A DNA stretch of 54,618 nucleotides from an uncultured Clostridia bacterium (GCA_947630145.1 CANRGL010000004.1:1-54618); one strand, 5' to 3'. Numbered from the stretch's first letter, positions 13,803-41,386 are shown. The notes: a model not told the origin generated them from the sequence alone. Made by a program: numbers and translations.

Positions 13803-13969
13803 TATATTTTTTAAAAAAGTTTTAAATTCATGATAAAATAATTAAAAAAATGGTTATTTTATCATATAATGTAAATAAAAAATGTCGAAAATGCACAAGT
13901 TTTATCTAACTATGTAGAAAATATTGACTTTAAGTCATTACAATGCTAAAATTTTTTTTGGTGAGTAAT

Positions 13970-15808
13970 ATGATTATTTTAATTCAATTTATTTTTTATC
14001 TTTTATTTTTTATCTATAAGTTATATTCTCTTTTAGTAAATCACGTTATTTTGATAGGTATTGGAGGTAAACTTGATAAATATATTGAAAATCTAAAAAG
14101 TATAACTTACAATTTAAGAAAGACAAAAAAGAAAAAATTTTTTAATCTTAGATTTTACTTATGTAATCTACTCACTTGGTGCAAACAGAAAATATTTTTT
14201 CTGTTTGTATCAATAATTATTTTAATATTAAATATTAGTTTAACTTTCGATTTTTTTAATTCTAATGTACTATTTATAACAATATTTAATAAAAATATAG
14301 AACTTTCATATTTATTTGGAGATAAATATATATTTTTTAAAATATTGTATTATTTATTATTTTTCTTTTTTATTTTTTCTTTAATTAACAAATTTTATTC
14401 ATTTTTTTCAGTTAATAAAAAATCCAAAGAAAATATAAATCATGAAATTAAAAATGATAATTTAAGAATAAATATAAAGACTGATAATGATAAAGATTTT
14501 ACTATTTATGAAAATGGTTTATACCAAAATATATTAATAACTGGAAGTATAGGATCAGGAAAAACAAGTTGTGCTATATCAAATGTTTTAGATGGCCTTG
14601 TAATGAATAATATAGGTGGATTAATTATAGATATAAAAGGTAACTATATAAATACAGTAAAAAAGATTTTGAAAAAGTATAACAGGATAGAAGATCTAGA
14701 AGAAATATCATTAACAAATAGATATGTATATAATCCTTTAGATAATATACAATTTTCGAGTATTGAAATAGCAAATATTATAAAAAAGGTTTTAACAATT
14801 TTATCTGAAGAAAATAAAAATACAGATCCATTCTTTTTAGATAAAGCAGAGGAGTATATTAGAGACTTTATAACTTTGATTAGAATATATAATAATGGAA
14901 ATTTAAATTTTAAAGAATTGCATAATTTAGTTATTAATAAAGAATATTTAGAAGAAAAATTAAAATATATAAAGGATAAAATACTAAATAATGAATTTAA
15001 TGACGAAGAGCTATTTGAAATAAATAATGCCATAATAAATATTAATAATGATTTTTTTAATTTAGATCAAAGGACATTTGGAATTATAAGATCGGAAATA
15101 ACTAGGATGACATCAATATTTTTATCAAATAATATGGTTTGTAATAAATTTTGTGGAAGAAGTAATACTATTAATTTTTTATCTAAGAAAATATATGTGT
15201 TATCTTTAGATATATCAAATAATGAAAAATTATCTAAGATAATAGCCACATATATGAAATTGCAATTTCAAAAGCAAGTATTAACAAACACAGCTAGGGA
15301 TAGTCCAGTATTTTTTATTTGTGATGAATATCAAGAAATTTGTAATAAACAAGATGCTAACTTTTTTTCACTGTCAAGAGAATATAAATGTATAAATGTC
15401 GTAAGTATGCAAAGTTATTCTTCTCTTATAAATACTTTAAATAATGAATATGTAGCTAATACAATTCTTCAAAATTTTATAAATAAGATATGGTTTAGAA
15501 ATGATGATGATTATACAATAAAAAAAATAATATCACAAATAGGAAAACAAAAAATTACAAACAAAAGTAAATCATATAGTGAGAATGGTAAAAATAGTAG
15601 ATATAACAAAATATTAAAAAAGATAACATCTTTTAAATCTGATTTTTCTACTAGTTATTCTGAGACTGAAAACATACAAAATAGATATAACGAAGAAGTT
15701 TTTACTCAGAAATTAAAAACGTTTGAAACTATTTGCTTGATATCAGATGGTGATAAAATTAATTTATATGAAATGGTAAAAATAAAAAGATGGGAGGAAG
15801 ATATATGA
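13970..15808 (+). CDS. VirD4/TraD-family type IV coupling ATPase (start uncertain)
   Basis: N-terminal TM helices, Walker A GSIGSGKT, DIKG, YNPL, DPFF, Walker B FICDEYQ and SREYKCINVVSMQS. Confidence 0.8.
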   Translation: MIILIQFIFYLLFFIYKLYSLLVNHVILIGIGGKLDKYIENLKSITYNLRKTKKKKFFNLRFYLCNLLTWCKQKIFFLFVSIIILILNISLTFDFFNSNVLFITIFNKNIELSYLFGDKYIFFKILYYLLFFFFIFSLINKFYSFFSVNKKSKENINHEIKNDNLRINIKTDNDKDFTIYENGLYQNILITGSIGSGKTSCAISNVLDGLVMNNIGGLIIDIKGNYINTVKKILKKYNRIEDLEEISLTNRYVYNPLDNIQFSSIEIANIIKKVLTILSEENKNTDPFFLDKAEEYIRDFITLIRIYNNGNLNFKELHNLVINKEYLEEKLKYIKDKILNNEFNDEELFEINNAIININNDFFNLDQRTFGIIRSEITRMTSIFLSNNMVCNKFCGRSNTINFLSKKIYVLSLDISNNEKLSKIIATYMKLQFQKQVLTNTARDSPVFFICDEYQEICNKQDANFFSLSREYKCINVVSMQSYSSLINTLNNEYVANTILQNFINKIWFRNDDDYTIKKIISQIGKQKITNKSKSYSENGKNSRYNKILKKITSFKSDFSTSYSETENIQNRYNEEVFTQKLKTFETICLISDGDKINLYEMVKIKRWEEDI

Positions 15809-16140
15809 AAATAAAATATAAAAAAATAATACTATTTAGTTTTACTCTGATTTGCTGTTTTATGATTTTTTCTAGTATATATGGTGCTTCTGCTACTACA
15901 CCAACACTTGTTAATAAGTTAAATTCTGCTTTAAAAAAGATTCAGTCATATTTAGTAAAAATAGCTGCTCCAACAGCAGGTGTTGCTATTGCAACAGGTG
16001 TTTTGATGAGGAAACTTAGTTTTGGTGATGAAGAAAAAATGATAAAAGGTAAAAAAATAATTACAAATGCTATAATTTGTTACGGTATTATAATTTCAAT
16101 AGACCTTATTATAAAATTTGTGGATTCAGTATTAAAATAA
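15805..16140 (+). CDS. VirB2/TrbC-like pilin
   Basis: Signal-like N-terminus, then two hydrophobic helices separated by GDEEKMIKGKK. ATGA overlap with the ATPase stop codon. Confidence 0.7.
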   Translation: MKIKYKKIILFSFTLICCFMIFSSIYGASATTPTLVNKLNSALKKIQSYLVKIAAPTAGVAIATGVLMRKLSFGDEEKMIKGKKIITNAIICYGIIISIDLIIKFVDSVLK

Positions 16141-32949: not shown

Positions 32950-33543
32950 ATGTATTCAGATACCGTAAATAAACTTATAAATCAATTTGAAAGACTGCCA
33001 GGAATAGGTCATAAAACTGCTGTAAGGCTAGCTTTTTATATTTTAGAATCAGATCAAAATGTAGCAAATGAATTTGCAGAAACTTTAGTTAAAGCAAAAC
33101 AAAATGTACGATTTTGTTCTGTATGTTATAACATTACAGAAAAAGATCCTTGTGATATTTGCTCAAATAATAAAAGGGATGAATCTACTATTTGTGTAGT
33201 TGAAAATGTTAAAGATGTTATAGCGATGGAAAAAACACATGAATATAAAGGGAAATATCATGTTTTACATGGTTCTATATCACCTATGAATAACATATCT
33301 GCAGGAGATATAAAAATAAAAGAACTATTAGAAAGATTAAAAGATGATGTTATAAAAGAAGTTATTCTTGCTACTAATCCTACTGTTGAAGGTGAAGCTA
33401 CTGCTATGTATATTTCAAGACTTATAAAACCTCTTGGTATTAAAGTAACAAGGATTGCTCATGGTATTCCAGTAGGTGGAGACCTTGAGTATACAGATGA
33501 AATTACTTTAATAAAAGCTTTAGAAGGTAGGACGCAAATGTAA
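32950..33543 (+). CDS. recR: Recombination mediator RecR
   Basis: [10 protein letters not shown]4 zinc finger, YHVLHG and [12 protein letters not shown]. Confidence 0.97.
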
Positions 33544-33548
33544 GATAA

Positions 33549-33578
33549 AAATAGGTGGTACTAAAAAACCACCTATTT
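33549..33578 (+). terminator. Terminator after recR
   Basis: AAATAGGTGGT / ACCACCTATTT. Confidence 0.8.
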
Positions 33579-33713
33579 TAACTTATATTCCCTAATATAT
33601 AGACCCAATATAAGTTAATAAATATAGTATATAATATATTTAAACTATGAAACATAGTTATATAAATATTATTAATATAAAAATAAAAAATATACCAAAA
33701 AGAGGGAAAAATT

Positions 33714-34481
33714 ATGAAAATTGGAGTTTTTGATTCAGGAATTGGAGGAACAACTGTTTTTAAAGAAATTTTAAAGCAAGATATTAATGCACAATTTTAT
33801 TATTTTGCAGATAATAAAAACACTCCATATGGAATAAAGAATAAAGAAGAAGTAAAAAATTATATAATAAAAAACATTGAATATTTAGTAAATGTTGGTT
33901 GTGAAATTATAGTTATAGCATGTAATACTGCTACAATTCTTTGTATTGAAAATTTAAGAAAAAAACTCCCTAATATATGCTTTATTGGAATTGAACCTGC
34001 AATAAAAAAAGCTATAGAAAATGATAATAAGAAAAAAATTTTAGTTACAGCCACAACTATTACTTTAAAAGAAGAAAAAATAAATAATTTAATTAAAAAT
34101 TTAGAAATTACTGATAAAGTCGAATTATTACCTCTTGATAGATTAGTTATATATGCAGAAAAGAATTCTAGTAAAATAGAAGTAAAAAAATATTTAAAAG
34201 AAAAATTAAATAAATATAAATTTAATGAATATGGTCAGATTGTGCTTGGTTGTACACACTTTCCAATTTTTAAAGAAGAATTTAAGGAAATTTTGCCTAA
34301 TATTAAAATAGTAGATGGTAGTAAAGAGGTAGTAAAAAATTTGAAAAATAAAATTAATGATATGAATTTAAAAAAGACAAATACATGTACGACATTAATA
34401 TTAACTAAAGAAGATTCAGAATTTATAGATAATTTTAATAGATTATTAAATATTAATATTGATACTGCACTTTATATTTAA
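33714..34481 (+). CDS. murI: Glutamate racemase
   Basis: IGVFDSGIGG, PYG, IACNTAT and LGCTHFP. Confidence 0.95.
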   Translation: MKIGVFDSGIGGTTVFKEILKQDINAQFYYFADNKNTPYGIKNKEEVKNYIIKNIEYLVNVGCEIIVIACNTATILCIENLRKKLPNICFIGIEPAIKKAIENDNKKKILVTATTITLKEEKINNLIKNLEITDKVELLPLDRLVIYAEKNSSKIEVKKYLKEKLNKYKFNEYGQIVLGCTHFPIFKEEFKEILPNIKIVDGSKEVVKNLKNKINDMNLKKTNTCTTLILTKEDSEFIDNFNRLLNINIDTALYI

Positions 34482-34485
34482 AAAA
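34431..34485 (+). repeat. Direct repeat A, copy 1 (3' end of murI)
   Basis: AATTTTAATAGATTATTAAATATTAATATTGATACTGCACTTTATATTTAAAAAA recurs with a few substitutions at 35627-35681. Confidence 0.88.
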
Positions 34486-34537
34486 TATTAATTAGTTAAA
34501 ACTAGGTTTTTTAATACTAAGAAAAAGGGGTTATTTT

Positions 34538-35626
34538 ATGGGAAGATTAAGGCAATTTTTTAATAGAATATTTGGAAAAAAGCAAAAAAAATTACCTGAA
34601 CAACAATATCAAGTAATGAACAATAATAACTTTAAAAATGATTTACAGAAAAATATTATACCAAAAGATGAAATTAGCTTTAATGAAGTTTCAGATTATT
34701 TTAATCAAAGTCCAAAAAAAATATCAAAACAAACGGTAAATGATGTATTGCACAATGAACAGCATGATAAATATGAAGATAAAATTAGAATAATTACTAA
34801 TGAATATTCAAAAAAATTACAAAATTTTGATAGAAAAACAATATATAATGCTTTAGAATTTTTAAATAAAAGACGTCAAAATCATGGAAAAAACAATGAT
34901 GATATTAAATTAAATACTGAAGCAAAGAAAGTATTTGAGTTAATGAAAGAATATGAACAGTCAATAAAAAAGTTTTTTGTTGATAATAATATTGATATTA
35001 CGCATATAACTAGCATTGCTCCAGATAAGCTAGAAAATGGAGTATTAAGAAAGTCTATTGATAGAGCTAATAATTATGAAACTGAAAGAGTAGATGGAGT
35101 TTTTGCTTCTTCTATCCCAGTTGATGGGCATAATCCTTATATTGCTCGTAGTAGCTCATCAGGGATGATTATGTTAGGAAAATCAATATGTATTTATGAA
35201 AATGACAATATTAAAGTAACCCAAGATTTAGAAGGAAAAAATCACGCTATTTTAAAACATCCAAATTATATTTATTATATAAATCCTAATAAATTTAATC
35301 CAGTATGTAACTTAACTATGGATTTAGAAAGTAATAAACCTATTTTTGAATTTTCAGAAGAATGGATTTCAGATTCAGAAATTGATATATCAGACTCTAA
35401 TCAAGTTAGAAGTATTGAACAGGTTAGAGATGTAACAAATTTATTAGAAAATTATACAATTTTATGTGATACGCAAAGTCAAGGAATTGGTATGAAAGCC
35501 AGACAGTTAAAAACTAAGGCTGATGCATTGGAATTCATTGAGATGAAAATAAAAGATGGTAGTGTTAGAAATATAAATGAAGAAGTAGGAATAAATAATA
35601 GAAATTTAACAAGTATTGAAAGATAG
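34538..35626 (+). CDS. Hypothetical protein, 'MGR..FFNRIFG..LPEQ' family member 1
   Basis: N-terminus shared with 39274..40341; unrelated central region. Confidence 0.85.
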   Translation: MGRLRQFFNRIFGKKQKKLPEQQYQVMNNNNFKNDLQKNIIPKDEISFNEVSDYFNQSPKKISKQTVNDVLHNEQHDKYEDKIRIITNEYSKKLQNFDRKTIYNALEFLNKRRQNHGKNNDDIKLNTEAKKVFELMKEYEQSIKKFFVDNNIDITHITSIAPDKLENGVLRKSIDRANNYETERVDGVFASSIPVDGHNPYIARSSSSGMIMLGKSICIYENDNIKVTQDLEGKNHAILKHPNYIYYINPNKFNPVCNLTMDLESNKPIFEFSEEWISDSEIDISDSNQVRSIEQVRDVTNLLENYTILCDTQSQGIGMKARQLKTKADALEFIEMKIKDGSVRNINEEVGINNRNLTSIER

Positions 35627-35681
35627 AATTTTAATACATTATTAAACACTAATATTGATACTGTACTTTATATTCAAAAAA
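35627..35681 (+). repeat. Direct repeat A, copy 2
   Basis: Diverged copy of the murI 3' end, starting right after the stop codon of 34538..35626. Confidence 0.88.
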
Positions 35682-35688
35682 AAACAAA

Positions 35689-35998
35689 ATGACATCATAT
35701 TGTAACAAAAATTTAATAATAAATTTGTTATGAAAACTTGCGTTTTTTTAGTGTATACTATAAAAGTAGTGGTAAATTTATATTTTTAAAGCTATATAAA
35801 TAAGAGGGTTGATTAATTTATGGGAAGAATAAGAAATTTTTTTAATAGGATATTTGGAAGGAAACAAAAAAGTTTACCTGAACAATAAGAGACATATAAA
35901 ATATCTGAAGATGATTTAAATAGTGTTCCAGAAGTAAGTGAAGAAAAAGAAAATTTAGTAGATAACAATTTTAAAGATGATTTACAGAAAAGTACTAT
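35689..35998 (+). repeat. Direct repeat B, copy 1 (promoter plus 5' gene portion)
   Basis: Near-identical to 39137-39452. The 6-bp length difference lies in a poly-T tract. Confidence 0.95.
35820..35998 (+). pseudogene. Truncated copy of the 39274 gene
   Basis: MGRIRNFFNRIFGRKQKSLPEQ then TAA at 35886, where the intact copy has CAA. Similarity ends near 35998. Confidence 0.9.
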
Positions 35999-36237
35999 GT
36001 CGTCTCTGCTTTCTCTGCAATAGATTACTCTCTTTTTTCTTCGTTAGACTTTTTTATAGATTACCTCCGTTTTTATATGTATCAACAACATTTTTATTTT
36101 TGTATTTTAACACCTTCCCGACGTCTAGAAGATGTATCCTATCAAGATTATAAACCTTTACTGTTTTTTTGAATTAATAACGTCGGTTTTTTTGACGGTG
36201 TTTTCTTCTCTTAATTCTTCACTTTTTAATTTATTGT

Positions 36238-36723
36238 TTATGTATCTAATGAATAAATATAAAGTATATTAGATTCTTTATCAAATATAGCAATAGAATA
36301 ATTTGAAGATGCTCTATTGAACATGTCATTATAATTATATTTATTTATTGTCTTGCTATGTCTATCTAAAAAGAACCAATATCCATTTTCTACAAATGGT
36401 ATAGACATATCTTCTATACTATTATTGGTTATACAAGTTTGTAACATTTCATCAATTGGTAATTTATTCCAATGCATATTGTTTTCTATTTTGCTTATAA
36501 ATTTCTCTGCTTGCTTGTCCGAAAAATATATTTTTACAAGTGCTTCCCCATCTCCATGAAAGCCACCATGTGTATCTTTTTCTTCCATCTTTGCAAACAT
36601 TGGGATAGGTATCTCAATTAGCGACGAGTAAAAATTATAATCATAAAGCGTATGTAAGTATACTATATATATAATTATCAAAAGTAATATAATAAAAAAA
36701 ACTATTTCAAAAAATTTTTTCAT
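36238..36723 (-). CDS. Membrane-anchored hypothetical protein, candidate immunity protein
   Basis: N-terminal TM helix, DTHGGFHGDGE and a C-terminal YSIAIFD..LYIYSLDT. Its RBS abuts the stop codon of the upstream gene. Confidence 0.7.
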   Translation of the reverse strand: MKKFFEIVFFIILLLIIIYIVYLHTLYDYNFYSSLIEIPIPMFAKMEEKDTHGGFHGDGEALVKIYFSDKQAEKFISKIENNMHWNKLPIDEMLQTCITNNSIEDMSIPFVENGYWFFLDRHSKTINKYNYNDMFNRASSNYSIAIFDKESNILYIYSLDT

Positions 36724-36738
36724 TATTAACATCACCTC

Positions 36739-37801
36739 TTAAAACATTTCAATCTCTCCATTCTTTTGTATTTTTATTGTAAGTTTTGCAATAACATTAT
36801 ATTCTTTAATTACTCCTAATTTTTGTGAAATAAATGCTAAATTATATAATGTACTAGACAATATACTTTTCGGAATATTATTAGCATCAAAGTAATAATC
36901 TAAAGGTGTTTTAAATTTAGTAAAATCAAAAGTATCGCTTAAAGTAATGTCTGCTTTCCAATTTGAGTCTTCATTTTTTTCTGACTTCATTTCAATATTA
37001 GCCTTATGAATAGCAAAATATAAATCGCTATTTTTAAATGCCATAGACTCTTTTCCTTGTGATATATAAAAATTTTGTTGTTTATTATACTTATCTAGAA
37101 TTTCTTTTATTTTATTTTTAAAGTTTTCATCTCTAATTATTAAATTTATTATTTCTTCATCTTTTATAATAAAATCTTTTGGATTTTTCTCTAAAGAATG
37201 TTGTAATAATTCTGCTGCTAATTTATAGTTAAAATATCTTCCTCCAACTTCAATTACTGTTTGCCAAAATGCATATTGCATTGCTTTAAATGAATTTTTT
37301 TCATATTGATTTTTATTTTTATACATATTGAATATATAACTAAAACCAGTTATTAATAATTTTATATTTTCATCTTCTTTATATTGATTATTTTCTACTT
37401 TAGCAAGATTAGTTTTAAATTTTGTTTCTTTTTTGTATAAATCATATGCTTCTTTTAGTTTAATTTTTTTAGCTGTTATCATTTCTTCAAATTTTTCTAT
37501 CTTATCAACTTTTTCAATATCTTCGTTTATCTGTTTTTTTAATTTTTCAAAGTTTCCATACTTTAATTTATCTAAATATTGATATGTCAAATACCTATCA
37601 ACTAACCATATTTTCTGATCTTTATTAATTTTAGAAATATTTGTTCTTTGCATAATGTTTTTTATATAAAAATAATTCTTTATTCTTTCCTCTTGTAGGT
37701 TTTTCAATAGCTAAAAATTTATATATATTATTTATGCATCCATTACCAAACTCATTTTTTGATTTTTTCATATCTTTTTGACATAATAAACATTCGTGCA
37801 T
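36739..37801 (-). CDS. CxxC-N-terminal-domain protein with a +1 frameshift at an A6 run (possible pseudogene)
   Basis: ATG at 37801 gives MHECLLCQK..FGNGC..IEKP. Removing one A at 37658-37663 joins it to track ORF 36739..37707. The N-terminus is homologous to the ORF at 54322. Confidence 0.8.
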
Positions 37802-37878
37802 TTTGTATCATCTCTAATCTTGTTATAATTTTACTATATTTTTCCTATTATAACAATATATAATATTTATTGACTACC

Positions 37879-37917
37879 TAAATCCAACTGGTAACAATTT
37901 GTCACCAGTTGGATTTA
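37879..37917. repeat. 39-bp palindrome, also a plausible terminator
   Basis: TAAATCCAACTGGTAACAATTTGTCACCAGTTGGATTTA. Confidence 0.9.
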
Positions 37918-37924
37918 CAAGAAA

Positions 37925-38767
37925 TTATTGTTCTTCACCAGAATTTAGTTTTCTTATTTCTTTAGCATTTTTATCAGATACAACTTTTTTTCCTGTTTCT
38001 TTTTCTAATTGTTCTTTTGCAATTCTTGCAATATTTCCACCCTTTACAACAGAATCTTCTGCTTCCTTAAATCCTTTTTTGGTTTTACTTTTAGATATCT
38101 CTGTAGAAGATGTTTCTGCTAACATATTTAGAACTAATTCCATATTTGTCATATTATCTCTTAGATTTTCTTTTTTTAAACCTTTTAAATTCTTATATTC
38201 TTTTACAGAATAGCCACTCCAAGCTTGTGTTAAAATATTTGTTAATATTGCAAAATCTTTGCCTGAATTTATTCCTTTTGCTTTTAATTCATCTGTAAAA
38301 TCTTTTCTAATATCTATGGTTTTTAATCTTTGATTTATCCATTCTTCTGAATAGCCTTTTTTTCTGTATATATCTAATGATCTATTTATTGCAATTTCTG
38401 GATCATATACTTCATCTATTCGTTCTTTGCCAACTTGTGCTAACCACAATTTAAAAGGCTCTGCTTTCTTTGATGGTATGGACTGTATTAAACGTAAAAC
38501 TTGCTCTGTATTCATTACATCAGTATTATAATATTTTCCATCTGTTGATTTCATTTTCAGTTGGTTAGTCTTACTAACCAACTCACTTCCTTCTTCATTT
38601 AGTTTGCTTTTCAACCACTTCCAATAATTTCTTGATTTTTGATAATCATTATCTGTTAATACAGAAATAACATCAACAACTGAAAAATACCATTTTTCTT
38701 GTTGTTCATCCCATTTAACTCTAATCTTTTTATCTTCAAATAATTTTAATTCATTATCTTGTCCCAT
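37925..38767 (-). CDS. BRO-N / phage antirepressor-like DNA-binding protein
   Basis: IRVKWD..WYFSVVDV, YWKWLK, RLIQSIPSKKAEPFKLWLA and NLRDNMT. ATG 38767 follows GAGAGGT. Confidence 0.88.
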   Translation of the reverse strand: MGQDNELKLFEDKKIRVKWDEQQEKWYFSVVDVISVLTDNDYQKSRNYWKWLKSKLNEEGSELVSKTNQLKMKSTDGKYYNTDVMNTEQVLRLIQSIPSKKAEPFKLWLAQVGKERIDEVYDPEIAINRSLDIYRKKGYSEEWINQRLKTIDIRKDFTDELKAKGINSGKDFAILTNILTQAWSGYSVKEYKNLKGLKKENLRDNMTNMELVLNMLAETSSTEISKSKTKKGFKEAEDSVVKGGNIARIAKEQLEKETGKKVVSDKNAKEIRKLNSGEEQ

Positions 38768-38865
38768 TTTAATACCTCTCTTTCTCAAGTTATTCGGAAA
38801 TTCCGAACAACTCAAAATCTCTTTTATTTCTTATATTTATATTATATTTCTAAAATTTTTTCAAT

Positions 38866-39042
38866 ACTTTTTTCGAAATTCTGTTCTTTTTCTATTTATA
38901 TTTTTGTTTTATTCTATCAGAAATAATATCGGTGAATACCTGTTTATAATCTTGAATATCACCATCATTTGATTTTGGGCAAATAAATATTACAAATGGT
39001 AATTTATCTTTTATTTTTTTATTTTTATTATTCTCTTTAACA
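38866..39042 (-). pseudogene. Probable 3' fragment of a gene cut by repeat C
   Basis: Open stretch KDKLPFVIFICPKSNDGDIQDYKQVFTDIISDR.. with no convincing start or RBS. Confidence 0.35.
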
Positions 39043-39045
39043 AAA

Positions 39046-39136
39046 AAAGAAAAATGTGATTAACTTTCTATTAGAATAGTATAAATTCTAGTTATATATA
39101 TATTATAAGGTGTTATAATTAAATTATGTTATCATT
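39046..39136 (+). repeat. Direct repeat C, copy 1
   Basis: AAAGAAAAATGTGATTAACTTTCTATTA..TGTTATAATTAAATT..TTATCATT recurs at 40469-40557. Confidence 0.9.
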
Positions 39137-39452
39137 ATGACATCATATTGTAACAAAAATTTAACAATAAATTTGTTATGAAAACTTGCGTTTTTTTTTT
39201 TTTAGTGTATGCTATAGGGGTAGTGATAAATTTATATTTTTAAAGCTATATAAATAAGAGGAGTGATTAATTTATGGGAAGAATAAGAAATTTTTTTAAT
39301 AGGATATTTGGAAGAAAACAAAAAAGTTTACCAGAACAACAAGAGACATATAAAATATCTGAAGATGATTTAAATAGTGTGCCAGAAGTAAATGAAGAAA
39401 AAGAAAATTTAGTAGATAATAATTTTAAAGATGATTTACAGAAAAATACTAT
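39137..39452 (+). repeat. Direct repeat B, copy 2
   Basis: Matches 35689-35998. Confidence 0.95.
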
Positions 39453-40341
39453 ACAAAAAGAAGAAATGAGCTTCAATGAGACTTTGGATTATTTTATACA
39501 AAGTCAGAGACTAGAACCAATATGTAAAAGTCCAAGAGGAAGAGAAAGACTAGAAGAAATGTTAACTAAAGTTTTAGAAAAACATAAAGTAAGACAAGAA
39601 GATGGAGTATACAGTTTATGGCGTGTTGAAAATGCATTGGAAATGCATTTTGGTAAACCAACTGCTGATAGGACTAGTATAACTTTTGAAGATAGAGAAT
39701 TTTATGCTTCTGATTATGATAGAAATAATAGTGAAATAGCACCAGGATGTCAAAAAACAACAATAAGTGTTAATGAGTATGGTGAATTAAGTGAAGTAAC
39801 TGAAGGAAGAGGTAGCTATTTATATAATAGGAGAAACCCTGAAGATAAAAATAGACCTACACAATGTATATATAGTAGAAGAGAAAGGCATTATGAAAAG
39901 ACTGGAGTTGAAGATTTAAGAATATATGAGCAAGCTGATATACCAATACAAGGAAAAGATGGTTATCAAAAGAAACCTTCATTTGACTATGCTCTTTTTG
40001 ATGGTGGTGATAGAGGAAAAGGATATCCTAATTATTATAAAGAATTGGGAAGAAGGCAAGATGGAATTACAGCTGATGTGGCTATAACTGAACATGGTGA
40101 ATTAAAAATTTCAAGAGCATATATAAATTCTCAATATGGGGTTGATAACTTAAATATTTCTAATGGAGAATATACTAAAAAAGAATTACCATATTATAGA
40201 GATATGACAGAGGAACAAAAAGAAAAATTTAATGAGGTTGCAAAAGATGCAATTTCTAGATCAAAATATAAAGAAGCATTAGTTTCTCAAACACCAGGTA
40301 TTGAAATGGAAGATTTAGAACAAAATAAAAGTATTGAGTAG
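39274..40341 (+). CDS. Hypothetical protein, 'MGR..FFNRIFG..LPEQ' family member 2
   Basis: RBS GAGGAG, an N-terminus shared with 34538, and a terminator-like hairpin downstream. Confidence 0.88.
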   Translation: MGRIRNFFNRIFGRKQKSLPEQQETYKISEDDLNSVPEVNEEKENLVDNNFKDDLQKNTIQKEEMSFNETLDYFIQSQRLEPICKSPRGRERLEEMLTKVLEKHKVRQEDGVYSLWRVENALEMHFGKPTADRTSITFEDREFYASDYDRNNSEIAPGCQKTTISVNEYGELSEVTEGRGSYLYNRRNPEDKNRPTQCIYSRRERHYEKTGVEDLRIYEQADIPIQGKDGYQKKPSFDYALFDGGDRGKGYPNYYKELGRRQDGITADVAITEHGELKISRAYINSQYGVDNLNISNGEYTKKELPYYRDMTEEQKEKFNEVAKDAISRSKYKEALVSQTPGIEMEDLEQNKSIE

Positions 40342-40468
40342 TTATATAAATAAAGGGAAGTAAGTTTATTGTTTTTAATACTTACTTCTTTTTATTTATT
40401 ATAATATGAAGAAACGTATTAAAACGCAAATATTTTTTATAATTTTAAAAATGCATATTTTAACCAAT

Positions 40469-40557
40469 AAAGAAAAATGTGATTAACTTTCTATTAAAAT
40501 AGTATAAATTTTAGTTATATATATTATAATCTGTTATAATTAAATTCATTTATCATT
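40469..40557 (+). repeat. Direct repeat C, copy 2 (upstream of the walR-like gene)
   Basis: Matches 39046-39136. Confidence 0.9.
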
Positions 40558-40684
40558 CATATAACAAAAATATTACAAGATTACAAATAAATGTCAAAAA
40601 AATTAAAAATATTTCATTAAAATGTAGAAATATTTTTTTTAACATGATATAATATTTTCAAATGTGGATTACGAGGTGAAATAT

Positions 40685-41386
40685 ATGAATGATAAGAAAA
40701 TTTTAATCGTTGATGATGAAAGACCAATAGTAGACATATTAAAGTTTAATTTAGAAAAAGAAGGATTTTCTACTACTGTAGCATATGATGGGGAGGAAGC
40801 AATAAATACAGCTTTATCTGTAAAACCTGATCTTATTCTTCTTGATTTAATGTTACCTAAAGTAGATGGTTTTAACGTATGTAAAGAAATAAGGAAACAT
40901 CTTACTTGTCCTATTATAATGCTTACTGCAAAAGAAGAAGTAGTAGATAAAATTATTGGATTAGAATTAGGTGCTGATGATTATATGACTAAACCTTTTA
41001 GTATAAGAGAGGTTATTGCAAGAGTAAAGGCAAATCTAAGAAAACATGTATTACCTGAAGAAGATGATGATAAAAAATCATCAAAAAATAAAATAAAAAT
41101 AAAAGATATGGTTATAGATCCAGAAAGATATATAGCAATTATAGGAGATAAAACAATAGATCTTACAATAAAAGAATTTGAACTTTTAAAAATGCTTTCT
41201 TCTGCTCCAAATCAAGTATTTACAAGAGAGCAAATTTTAAGAGGAGTATGGGGATATGATTTTTATGGTGATGCTAGAACAGTAGACGTTACTATTAGAC
41301 GTTTAAGAGAAAAGATAGAAAAAAATTCTGCTGATCCTCAATATGTTCAAACTAAAAGAGGAATGGGCTACTATGTTTCAACTTAA
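40685..41386 (+). CDS. walR: OmpR-family response regulator, WalR/YycF-like
   Basis: ILIVDDERPIVDILKFNL, LLDLMLP, GLELGADDYMTKPF and RTVDVTIRRLREKIE. Confidence 0.8.
   Translation: MNDKKILIVDDERPIVDILKFNLEKEGFSTTVAYDGEEAINTALSVKPDLILLDLMLPKVDGFNVCKEIRKHLTCPIIMLTAKEEVVDKIIGLELGADDYMTKPFSIREVIARVKANLRKHVLPEEDDDKKSSKNKIKIKDMVIDPERYIAIIGDKTIDLTIKEFELLKMLSSAPNQVFTREQILRGVWGYDFYGDARTVDVTIRRLREKIEKNSADPQYVQTKRGMGYYVST

What the first reader, a model, noticed from the sequence alone, without database searches (positions are those of the whole stretch)
34538..40341. Polymorphic protein family with a constant N-terminal leader and swapped bodies
34538 and 39274 share MGR(L/I)R.FFNRIFG.KQK.LPEQQ...NNFK.DLQKN.I.K.E.SFNE..DYF.QS and then diverge completely. 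Both end in SIE(R). A third, truncated copy lies at 35820. The leader is amphipathic and basic and is not a Sec signal. Inference: a targeting or secretion tag on interchangeable effector domains, possibly substrates of the dispersed T4SS.
Basis: partly seen in the sequence, partly recalled or inferred. Interest (0 to 1): 0.75.

Follow-up and report, generated by a model that had tools for sequence, protein, structure and literature searches.

The report
Recombinant orphan genes sharing one head
Two unnamed accessory genes in an insertion hotspot of a small gut Clostridium share their first 60 residues because one is a recombinant of the other with an unrelated gene family, and only a 15-residue basic helix at the very start, probably a membrane anchor, is a tag common to both families.

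Summary
Gene 1 (34538-35626) and gene 2 (39274-40341) share about 60 N-terminal residues (52% identity, E 2e-19), their bodies are unrelated, and a truncated third copy lies at 35820.

The wider reading mostly fails. The 60-residue leader was found only on family-B bodies (gene 2 type) in every database searched. Gene 1 is the single exception: 175 nt of a B-type 5' end fused to the C-terminal domain of family A. Family A is usually 603 aa with a weak nucleotidyltransferase-like domain, and occurs in 23 Clostridia species records.

The back half of the leader belongs to B's folded domain. The third copy is a dead remnant: a 310-bp duplication flanks a 3.1-kb insertion.

The whole 6.2-kb segment sits in a murI-walR insertion hotspot that is empty in 14 of 18 relatives.

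T4SS coupling proteins occur in 79 of 79 related genomes, against B in 2 and A in 4, so there is no co-occurrence signal.

One shared element remains: a roughly 15-residue basic helix (..FFNRIFG+) heads both unrelated families. I read it as a reversible membrane anchor; this is inferred, not shown.

Neither body matches a known family or fold.

Gene 2's promoter-like element recurs 37 times in the genome, mostly before pilin-like genes.

The parts
33714..34481 (+). murI (glutamate racemase), the left border of the insertion hotspot
   Evidence: Pfam Asp_Glu_race, E 7e-17. In 14 of 18 genus relatives walR starts no more than 283 nt after murI.
34431..34485 (+). 55-nt direct repeat (the 3' end of murI). 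Its second copy at 35627-35681 starts right after the gene 1 stop codon, so the two copies bracket the gene 1 cassette.
   Evidence: Repeat D7, 91% identical; blastn 86.6% over 67 nt.
34538..34712 (+). Gene 1, B-derived head (codons 1-58): N-terminal motif MGRLRQFFNRIFGKK, a shortened spacer, then NNFKNDLQKN..SFNE..DYFNQS
   Evidence: 80-84% nt identity to the gene 2 5' end (D2 and D4). BLASTP E 2e-19.
34713..35626 (+). Gene 1, family-A C-terminal body: a three-helix bundle plus a beta-rich domain with invariant residues including H156, E181, S191, E271 and D311
   Evidence: 276 relatives at E <= 1e-3. From about nt 200-240 on, 84-88% nt identity to the three closest of five A genes of other species compared, 76-82% to the other two. 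Alignment A1. AF2 model pLDDT 62.5.
35689..35998 (+). 310-bp duplicate of 39137-39452: a promoter-like element plus a dead 5' stub of a B gene (ATG 35820, TAA at 35886-35888, likeness ends at 35998)
   Evidence: In a six-frame search it scores as a B leader containing 1 TAA.
35999..39136 (-). 3138-bp inserted segment between the two 310-bp repeats. It carries a 165-aa membrane protein (36238-36735), a frameshifted gene (36739-37801) and a Bro-N / PADLOC PDC-S13 gene (37925-38815). Its last 100 nt (39036-39136) repeat the walR upstream region (40459-40557).
   Evidence: ORFs. PDC-S13, E 6.8e-122. phrog_15286, E 3e-113. Repeats D5 and D12. In runs X6 and X9 the segment is held without genes 1 and 2, and a contig or loose end breaks exactly at 35999.
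39137..39273 (+). Promoter/operator-like element in front of gene 2: inverted repeat, then TTGCG, a T-run, then AGTGTATGCTATA. It is a dispersed repeat of this genome.
   Evidence: 37 blastn hits in the genome. 17 precede pilin-like genes and 14 lie at contig ends. It also precedes the B gene of G048 (83% over 82 nt).
39274..40341 (+). Gene 2, a full-length family-B protein: helix 2-12, disordered linker 13-48, then a folded alpha/beta domain from about residue 50
   Evidence: 14 relatives at 49-56% identity over 99-100% of the length. Alignment A2. AF2 pLDDT 77.4, pTM 0.73.
40664..41386 (+). walR-like response regulator, the right border of the hotspot
   Evidence: Pfam Response_reg and Trans_reg_C. 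83-94% identical in 17 of the 18 relatives fetched, none found within 7 kb in the eighteenth.

Best explanation
The locus is a 6.2-kb patch of accessory DNA lodged in an insertion hotspot between murI and walR. Recombination has reshuffled two orphan protein families there.

Family B (gene 2) is rare. It has a short basic N-terminal helix, a disordered linker and a novel alpha/beta domain. Family A is more widespread among small-genome gut Clostridia. It is usually 603 aa: the same kind of N-terminal helix, a weak ANT/Lnu-like nucleotidyltransferase domain, and a conserved C-terminal domain. Many natural in-frame deletion forms keep only the helix and the C-terminal domain.

Gene 1 is a one-off chimera. 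The first 175 nt of a B gene were joined to an A C-terminal domain, which is why the two genes share 60 residues and then diverge completely.

The third copy is a by-product, not a gene. A 3.1-kb segment carrying a candidate defence gene entered by recombination that duplicated 310 bp (promoter plus the first 60 codons). The upstream copy was left as a stub with a stop codon.

The only module that truly rides on unrelated bodies is the first roughly 15 residues (M-x-[RK]-I-[RK]..[FIL][FL]-N-[RK]-[IL]-F-[GR]-[RK]). I infer that it is an in-plane amphipathic helix. On this reading it tethers the proteins reversibly to the inner face of the cytoplasmic membrane through a flexible linker, as the terminal helices of SepF, SftA, FtsA and MinD do.

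Shown: the anatomy, the chimera, the duplication, the hotspot, and the distribution. Inferred: membrane tethering. Unknown: what the bodies do. Their company (mobilisable-transposon genes, candidate defence genes, variable islands) suggests conflict or mobile-element functions.
For: Chimera:
- Gene 1 residues 1-60 match gene 2.
- Gene 1 residues from about 59 to 362 align with family A. There are 276 relatives; 82 of the 119 listed are 603 aa.
- At the DNA level, nt 1-175 resemble gene 2 at 80-84%. From about nt 200-240 on, gene 1 resembles the A genes of other species: 84-88% for three of the five compared (L016, L018, L023), 82% for L020 and 76% for L029.

The B-type leader stays on B bodies elsewhere.

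The back half of the leader is part of the B fold: pLDDT 86-96 from residue 60; P0136 and P0140 lack residues 1-48 but keep this part.

Duplication: 310 bp at 95-98% flank 3138 bp. The insert occurs on its own in other runs and breaks at 35999.

Hotspot: walR lies no more than 283 nt after murI in 14 of 18 relatives. Extra DNA of 0.75, 1.1, 3.0 and more than 7 kb lies there in 4 of 18. G048 has 5.8 kb holding a B gene, an AAA_14/DUF4143 ATPase and a broken TnpV.

Mobile context of family A:
- Its neighbours differ at nearly every one of the 23 loci.
- In L031 and L023 the A gene lies between a Bro-N gene of the same cluster as window 37925-38815 and TnpV.
- L031 also has DUF4368 and Mob_Pre nearby.

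N-terminal motif:
- The strict motif is present in 79 of 119 A and 15 of 19 B relatives.
- Variants with B-like spacing or a B-like glycine occur within family A (L026, L027).
- It is absent from all other N-termini of this genome.
- A helix is predicted at 2-12 and 5-11, followed by a linker with pLDDT below 50.
- The hydrophobic moment of the A motif is 0.97-1.14 in three of the four A heads scored (P0073, P0004, P0100), reached by only 0-11 of 2000 shuffles. The fourth, P0116, is reported in the Against line.

Precedent: the first 14 aa of SftA suffice to bring GFP to the membrane, and SepF, FtsA, MinD and Noc use such helices (passages of PMC9320952).
Against: - Membrane binding is not tested by anything here.
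- The B-type helix has only a moderate hydrophobic moment (0.66-0.71; 310-556 of 2000 shuffles reach it), and so does the fourth A head scored, P0116 (0.75; 279 of 2000 shuffles).
- The helix is modelled at low confidence (pLDDT about 30-50).
- Profile-profile comparison of families A and B did not report the N-terminal likeness at all. Common descent of the motif rests on a 7-residue pattern and its position.
- Some A relatives in this bacterial family (G003, G013, G014) lack the motif altogether, so the body works without it.
- Gene 2 shares its promoter-like element with genes for exported surface proteins. That would also fit an envelope or export role.
- The order of events at the locus (tandem duplication or Campbell-type entry) is not resolved.
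Confidence: 0.55

Rival explanations
1. One reading: the N-terminus is a secretion or translocation tag that delivers interchangeable effector domains out of the cell, through the chromosomal T4SS or another envelope machine such as the pilus system.
For: - The same short motif heads two unrelated bodies in many species.
- The window holds T4SS coupling proteins and a T4SS pilin.
- Gene 2 and its G048 orthologue carry the promoter-like element that precedes 17 pilin-like genes and other surface-protein genes.
- One domain swap did occur.
Against: - No hydrophobic signal region is present.
- From established knowledge (recalled), known T4SS signals are C-terminal, and the shared 'SIE' end is not conserved in family B.
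- The T4SS coupling protein is in 79 of 79 genomes, against B in 2 and A in 4 of 79, so co-occurrence gives no signal.
- No other tagged protein exists in this genome.
- No immunity-like gene follows either gene in the window.
- Neither body matches a toxin or effector fold.
Confidence: 0.1
2. The short motif is a docking peptide or regulatory element rather than a lipid anchor. It could be a handle for a host or mobile-element protein (chaperone, protease, partner such as the 149-151-aa protein encoded downstream of A and B genes in relatives), or a degron.
For: - In G048 a B gene, and in G003 and G013 an A gene, are followed by homologous small genes (30% identity, E 1e-12). The two families therefore share a partner in some genomes.
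- The B-type helix is only moderately amphipathic.
Against: - The A proteins of G003 and G013 that have this partner lack the motif.
- The partner gene was not found in this genome, which is 88% complete.
- No binding test was run.
Confidence: 0.15
3. There is no common function. The motif in A and B is convergence or chance in lysine/asparagine/phenylalanine-rich proteomes, and the shared leader in the window reflects only local recombination between neighbouring genes.
For: - hhalign finds no N-terminal relation between the families.
- The genome is 25% G+C.
- The long leader is confined to this locus.
Against: - The 7-residue pattern occurs in only 4 of 3781 open frames of at least 60 aa in this genome. 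Only genes 1 and 2 have it at the N-terminus.
- Yet it sits at positions 8-12 in 79 of 119 A and 15 of 19 B relatives.
- It survives in A forms that have deleted up to 270 internal residues.
Confidence: 0.2

Closest known systems
Terminal amphipathic-helix membrane anchors of SepF, SftA (N-terminal), FtsA and MinD (C-terminal)
   Same: A helix of 10-15 residues at the extreme terminus, with a hydrophobic face of F/I/L and flanking K/R, followed by a flexible linker and a globular domain. In SftA 14 residues suffice for membrane binding (PMC9320952, passages read). The likeness of FFNRIFG to the MinD and SepF tail and head sequences is recalled from memory, not tested.
   Different: No sequence homology is claimed. 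The proteins here are accessory island genes, not division proteins. Membrane binding is untested, and the B-type helix has a weaker moment.
Polymorphic toxin systems (LXG, Rhs, CdiA, MafB) and the capsid-targeting leader of phage T4 internal proteins (both recalled)
   Same: A constant N-terminal part on unrelated C-terminal bodies. There are truncated orphan copies nearby, and recombination at the boundary.
   Different: Only one swap is seen. The head is 15 residues, not a trafficking domain. There is no immunity gene downstream in the window, no toxin fold was recognised, no array of cassettes exists, and no secretion system is linked.
Integration hotspots or defence islands, and cargo of Tn4451-type mobilisable transposons (TnpX, TnpV, Mob/Pre)
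   Same: The site is variable between conserved core genes. Neighbours include TnpV, DUF4368, Mob_Pre, Bro-N/PDC-S13, an AAA_14-DUF4143 ATPase, MazF, NERD and Fic.
   Different: No recombinase or intact transposon is present in the window's island. Genes 1 and 2 match no PADLOC model.

Membership tests
Polymorphic toxin / effector family with a trafficking leader | One conserved N-terminal module on several different C-terminal domains, within or across genomes | tested here: not met
   The 60-aa leader occurs on B bodies only, apart from gene 1. Only the 15-aa motif is shared by two families. This genome has no further copy.
Polymorphic toxin / effector family with a trafficking leader | A cognate immunity gene immediately downstream | tested here: not met
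   No ORF of at least 50 aa lies between the gene 1 stop and the stub, or between gene 2 and walR. In G048 two genes (309 and 149 aa) follow the B gene.
Polymorphic toxin / effector family with a trafficking leader | The C-terminal domain is a recognisable toxin or enzyme fold | tested here: inconclusive
Type IV secretion substrates | Dependence on, or co-occurrence with, a T4SS coupling protein | tested here: inconclusive
   PF02534 is in 79 of 79 genomes of the family. B is in 2 of 79 and A in 4 of 79. This gives no discrimination either way. Translocation is not testable here.
Sec / lipoprotein / prepilin signal peptides | A hydrophobic core of at least 10 residues after a basic N-region | tested here: not met
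   The sequence MGRIRNFFNRIFGRKQKSLPEQQ has no such run. Mean hydrophobicity of the best window is -0.2. No signal-peptide predictor was available.
Terminal amphipathic-helix membrane anchor | A short terminal helix with a high hydrophobic moment and basic flanks, followed by a flexible linker | tested here: inconclusive
   A helix is predicted at 2-12 and 5-11, and the linker has pLDDT below 50. Three of the four A heads scored give 0.97-1.14 (0-11 of 2000 shuffles reach it); the fourth, P0116, gives 0.75 (279 of 2000). The B motif gives 0.66-0.71 (310-556 of 2000).
Terminal amphipathic-helix membrane anchor | The motif alone brings a reporter to the membrane | not testable with these tools
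   This needs a GFP-fusion or liposome experiment.
ADP-ribosyltransferases (DarT / Arr / PARP-like), considered for body A | A sequence-profile or fold match to an ART family | tested here: inconclusive
   The lead came only from ESM Atlas neighbours at 0.80-0.88. There is no Pfam ART hit at E <= 10 in 26 members and no PDB profile hit. hhalign against 4 DarT sequences gave probability 0.4%. No ART appears among the fold matches.
ANT(2'')/Lnu-type nucleotidyltransferases (full-length family A only) | A Pfam or NCBIfam match above the curated cut-off | tested here: inconclusive
   PF14907 and PF10706 match 12 of 26 members each, mostly below cut-off (best E 3.5e-5). Lnu(A) scores 15.8 bits against a cut-off of 300. 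Gene 1 lacks this domain.

The most novel reading that the evidence does not exclude
The 15-residue FNRIF helix is a portable address label. Mobile elements of small-genome gut Clostridia would use it to station unrelated conflict or effector domains (A, B, perhaps more) at the membrane next to the envelope machines these bacteria all carry (T4SS, pilus). Gene 2 would be switched on together with a family of about 20 pilin-like surface proteins through a shared promoter-operator element. New head-body combinations would arise by recombination, as caught in gene 1.
Probability: 0.12. Interest if true: 0.7.

Novelty: new variant of a known kind. Interest (0 to 1): 0.35.

Why it matters
The result corrects an attractive reading. 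The locus does not show a large family of tagged effectors. It shows one recombination product in a busy insertion hotspot.

It still defines several things worth following up:
- Two protein families with no name and no fold match in the libraries searched here. Family A has 276 relatives at E <= 1e-3 in the metagenome protein clusters.
- A short N-terminal motif common to both families, which can be tested in a day with a GFP fusion.
- A clean natural example of how a new head-body combination and a dead stub arise.

If the motif is a membrane label used by mobile-element cargo, it would help to sort the many unannotated island genes of uncultured gut Clostridia by where they act.

Tried and rejected
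**Searches that found nothing for genes 1 and 2**
- Pfam, NCBIfam, PADLOC and PHROGs gave no hit.
- The PDB sequence profile for family A gave 0 hits at E <= 10.

**Fold searches**
- These show no match. They do not show a new fold. The beta domain of A was not folded alone.

**ADP-ribosyltransferase lead for body A**
- The lead came from the ESM Atlas at 0.80-0.88.
- Pfam at E <= 10 and hhalign against 4 DarT sequences did not back it.
- Other ART families were not compared.
- The ESM Atlas gave no usable hit for body B.

**Mobile-element collections**
- A and B were not found in IMG/VR.
- P0073 was not found by tblastn in the plasmid or phage collections.
- The metagenome contig scan for B returned a single 1.1-kb contig.

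**Other searches**
- No Rfam match at E <= 1 in 33500-41000.
- The promoter and terminator scan was no better than shuffles.
- Cluster look-up gave no source names for 7 proteins.
- 'PDC-S13' occurs in no held paper.
- Five sequence motifs of the two families occur in no held paper.
- Earlier notes of this scan hold nothing like gene 2 or the pilin-like protein.

**Sequencing runs**
- No RNA holder is listed, so nothing can be said on expression.
- The joints all have sides of 21-31 letters, and I do not rely on them.
- No contig spans the whole stretch.

**Weak hit discounted:** the G007 hit for B (E 4e-4, 27% identity, 2 stops) is treated as spurious.

**Not used:** Complex prediction.


Full report
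**Setting**

The window is 25% G+C chromosomal DNA from a 1.24-Mb genome that is 88% complete. It is a Clostridia-type genome. Relatives retrieved by name are uncultured gut Clostridia such as Clostridium sp. CAG:465.

Around the finding lie housekeeping genes:
- dnaX, ybaB, recR and murI on the left.
- A walRK-like two-component system and tatD on the right.

**Observation**

Gene 1 (34538-35626, 362 aa) and gene 2 (39274-40341, 355 aa) align only over residues 1-60 and 1-79. Identity is 41/79, with one 19-residue gap and E 2e-19. No other segment scores better than E 0.21. Profiles of the two families do not match either.

A third copy starts at 35820. The stretch 35689-35998 equals 39137-39452 at 95-98%. 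Codon 23 is TAA, and likeness stops sharply at 35998.

The shared 'SIE(R)' end is a coincidence. SIER ends 68 of 119 relatives of gene 1, while relatives of gene 2 end mostly in KSRD.

**What the two genes are**

Gene 2 belongs to a rare family, here called B.
- It has 14 relatives of 351-363 aa at 49-56% identity over the full length.
- It has six clusters among 1.84 billion representatives.
- It occurs in 2 of 401 genomes of the order, namely this one and G048.

The body of gene 1 belongs to a much larger family, here called A.
- It has 276 relatives at E <= 1e-3. Of the 119 listed, 82 are 603 aa.
- It occurs in 23 species records of uncultured Clostridia.
- Full-length A proteins have three parts: an N-terminal M.KIKDNII..FNRIFRRN motif, a weak ANT(2'')/Lnu-like nucleotidyltransferase region (mostly below cut-off), and a conserved C-terminal domain.
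- Many natural forms of 306-434 aa have lost internal parts in frame, and some have lost the N-terminus.

**Gene 1 is a chimera**

- Nucleotides 1-175 resemble gene 2 at 80-84%.
- From about nucleotide 200-240 on, it resembles the A genes of other species: 84-88% for three of the five compared (L016, L018, L023), 82% for L020 and 76% for L029.
- A leader-only search of 5.8 billion clusters returned 15 proteins among 28 candidates, all of family B.
- In this genome the leader occurs only at these three places.

**The leader is not one module**

In the model of gene 2 (pLDDT 77.4, pTM 0.73):
- Residues 2-12 form a helix.
- Residues 13-48 are disordered.
- From residue 60 confidence is 86-96.

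The conserved NFK.DLQKN..SF.E.LDYFIQ stretch therefore belongs to the fold. Distant B relatives (P0136, P0140) start just before it and lack the first 48 residues.

In the model of gene 1 (pLDDT 62.5), residues 1-77 are disordered.

**What is shared by both families**

The shared element is the first roughly 15 residues. The pattern [FILVMY]N[RK][IL]F[GRK][RK] occurs as follows:
- In the first 35 residues of 79 of 119 A relatives and 15 of 19 B relatives.
- In 4 of 3781 open frames of this genome, and at an N-terminus only in genes 1 and 2.

Family A includes variants with the B spacing (L026, MSIIRKFLNKLFRKS) and with the B glycine (L027, FNKIFGRN).

The hydrophobic moments are as follows:
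- Three of the four A heads scored (P0073, P0004, P0100) are strongly amphipathic: moment 0.97-1.14, reached by 0-11 of 2000 shuffles.
- The fourth, P0116, is not: 0.75, reached by 279 of 2000 shuffles.
- The B motif is moderately amphipathic: 0.66-0.71, the 92nd-95th percentile of N-termini in this genome, reached by 310-556 of 2000 shuffles.
- Net charge of the first 25 residues is +3 to +6.

Short terminal helices of this kind anchor SepF, SftA, FtsA, MinD and Noc to the membrane (passages of PMC9320952). I take this as the most likely role. It is an inference.

**How the locus arose**

The gap between murI and walR differs among genomes.
- In 14 of 18 relatives of the genus, walR starts no more than 283 nt after murI.
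- Four of the 18 relatives have 0.75, 1.1, 3.0 or more than 7 kb of other DNA there.
- The window has 6182 nt.
- G048 has 5768 nt, holding a B gene, two further genes, an AAA_14/DUF4143 ATPase and a broken TnpV.

Within the window's island:
- A 55-nt repeat of the murI end brackets gene 1 (D7).
- The 310-bp repeat brackets 3138 bp.
- The last 100 nt of that insert repeat the walR upstream region (D5 and D12).

The insert carries three genes:
- A Bro-N gene that matches the PADLOC candidate PDC-S13 (E 6.8e-122).
- A frameshifted gene.
- A 165-aa membrane protein.

Contigs of other runs hold the insert without genes 1 and 2 and break at 35999. Another run holds genes 1 and 2 at about 96-98%.

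**Context of family A**

- Neighbours differ at almost every locus and are mostly housekeeping genes.
- In L023 and L031 the A gene lies between a Bro-N gene of the same cluster as the window's and TnpV.
- L031 adds DUF4368 and Mob_Pre, the gene set of Tn4451-type mobilisable transposons (the family name is recalled).
- MazF, NERD, Fic and NUDIX genes are neighbours elsewhere.
- A and B were not found in IMG/VR, and A (P0073) was not found in the plasmid or phage collections.

**The T4SS idea**

The coupling protein family PF02534 is present in 79 of 79 genomes of the bacterial family. B is in 2 and A in 4. Co-occurrence therefore cannot support a link, and nothing else does.

**Function of the bodies**

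- Neither body matches a known family or fold.
- A weak language-model hint of ADP-ribosyltransferases for A was not backed by Pfam or by a DarT profile.
- In relatives both families can be followed by homologous genes of 149-151 aa. These are absent here.

**An unexpected link**

The 137 nt before gene 2 hold a promoter/operator-like element with 37 copies in this genome.
- Seventeen copies precede genes of a pilin-like family.
- Fourteen copies lie at contig ends.
- Other copies precede surface or membrane proteins.
- The B gene of G048 has the element too.

That pilin-like family has 20 ORFs. One N-terminal cluster is joined to three kinds of body. It is the real constant-head, swapped-body family of this genome.

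**Verdict**

The broad interpretation is mostly not supported, and a narrower, testable one remains. No paper in the held library prints the motifs of either family.

Noticed in passing
window 39137-39273 (second copy 35689-35819); 35 further copies on other contigs of G000: A dispersed promoter/operator-like element of about 80-100 nt: inverted repeat GTAACAAAAATTT..AAATTTGTTAT, then CTTGCG, a T-run of 12-13, then AGTGTATGCTATAAGGG. It has 37 blastn hits in the genome. 17 precede pilin-like genes, 14 lie at contig ends, and others precede a FIVAR surface protein and membrane proteins. It also precedes the B gene of G048.
   Followed up: partly
G000 contigs C6, C7, C8, C10, C12, C18, C20, C32, C34, C42, C52, C57 (e.g. 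L066:206-1420, L067:199-1665): A pilin-like multigene family of 20 ORFs, 18 of them full-length. The N-terminal 120 residues are constant (MKNNKRGISLIVLIV..., 57-100% identical) and are joined to three unrelated kinds of body (clusters of 10, 5 and 3), among them BspA-type leucine-rich repeats and an FGE-sulfatase-like domain. This is the clearest constant-head, swapped-body family in the genome.
   Followed up: partly
window 34482-40663; L048-L065: The murI-walR gap is a recurrent insertion site. It is empty (no more than 283 nt) in 14 of 18 genus relatives. It is filled with unrelated cargo in 4 of 18, in the window and in G048. In G016 the first of three cargo genes reads to me like a WYL-type regulator (judged by eye, no family search run).
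   Followed up: yes
window 36739-37801 (minus strand): The 322-aa ORF has its true N-terminus (a CxxC...GxGC motif) in the overlapping 56-aa ORF 37631-37801, so the gene is frameshifted here. Contigs of run X6 lack one base at 37658. The G044 homologue (342 aa) is followed by four tandem 116-120-aa membrane-protein genes, which looks like a toxin-immunity or bacteriocin-type layout.
   Followed up: partly
window 37925-38815 (minus strand): The Bro-N protein matches the PADLOC candidate defence family PDC-S13 (E 6.8e-122) and phrog_15286. Genes of the same cluster sit immediately upstream of family-A genes in L023 and L031.
   Followed up: partly
P0008, P0011, P0020, P0062, P0077, P0079, P0091, P0100, P0105; L012:316-2418: Family A shows many independent in-frame internal deletions that remove the nucleotidyltransferase-like region but keep the N-terminal motif and the C-terminal domain. 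One member (G013, 700 aa) has a 330-residue insertion near its C-terminus.
   Followed up: no
window 13943-16140 and 28570-29982: Two VirD4-like coupling protein genes and a T4SS pilin gene lie among core genes. The coupling protein family is present in all 79 genomes of this bacterial family, so it looks like a core chromosomal system. The copy at 28471-29697 is read through one TAG in the six-frame search.
   Followed up: no
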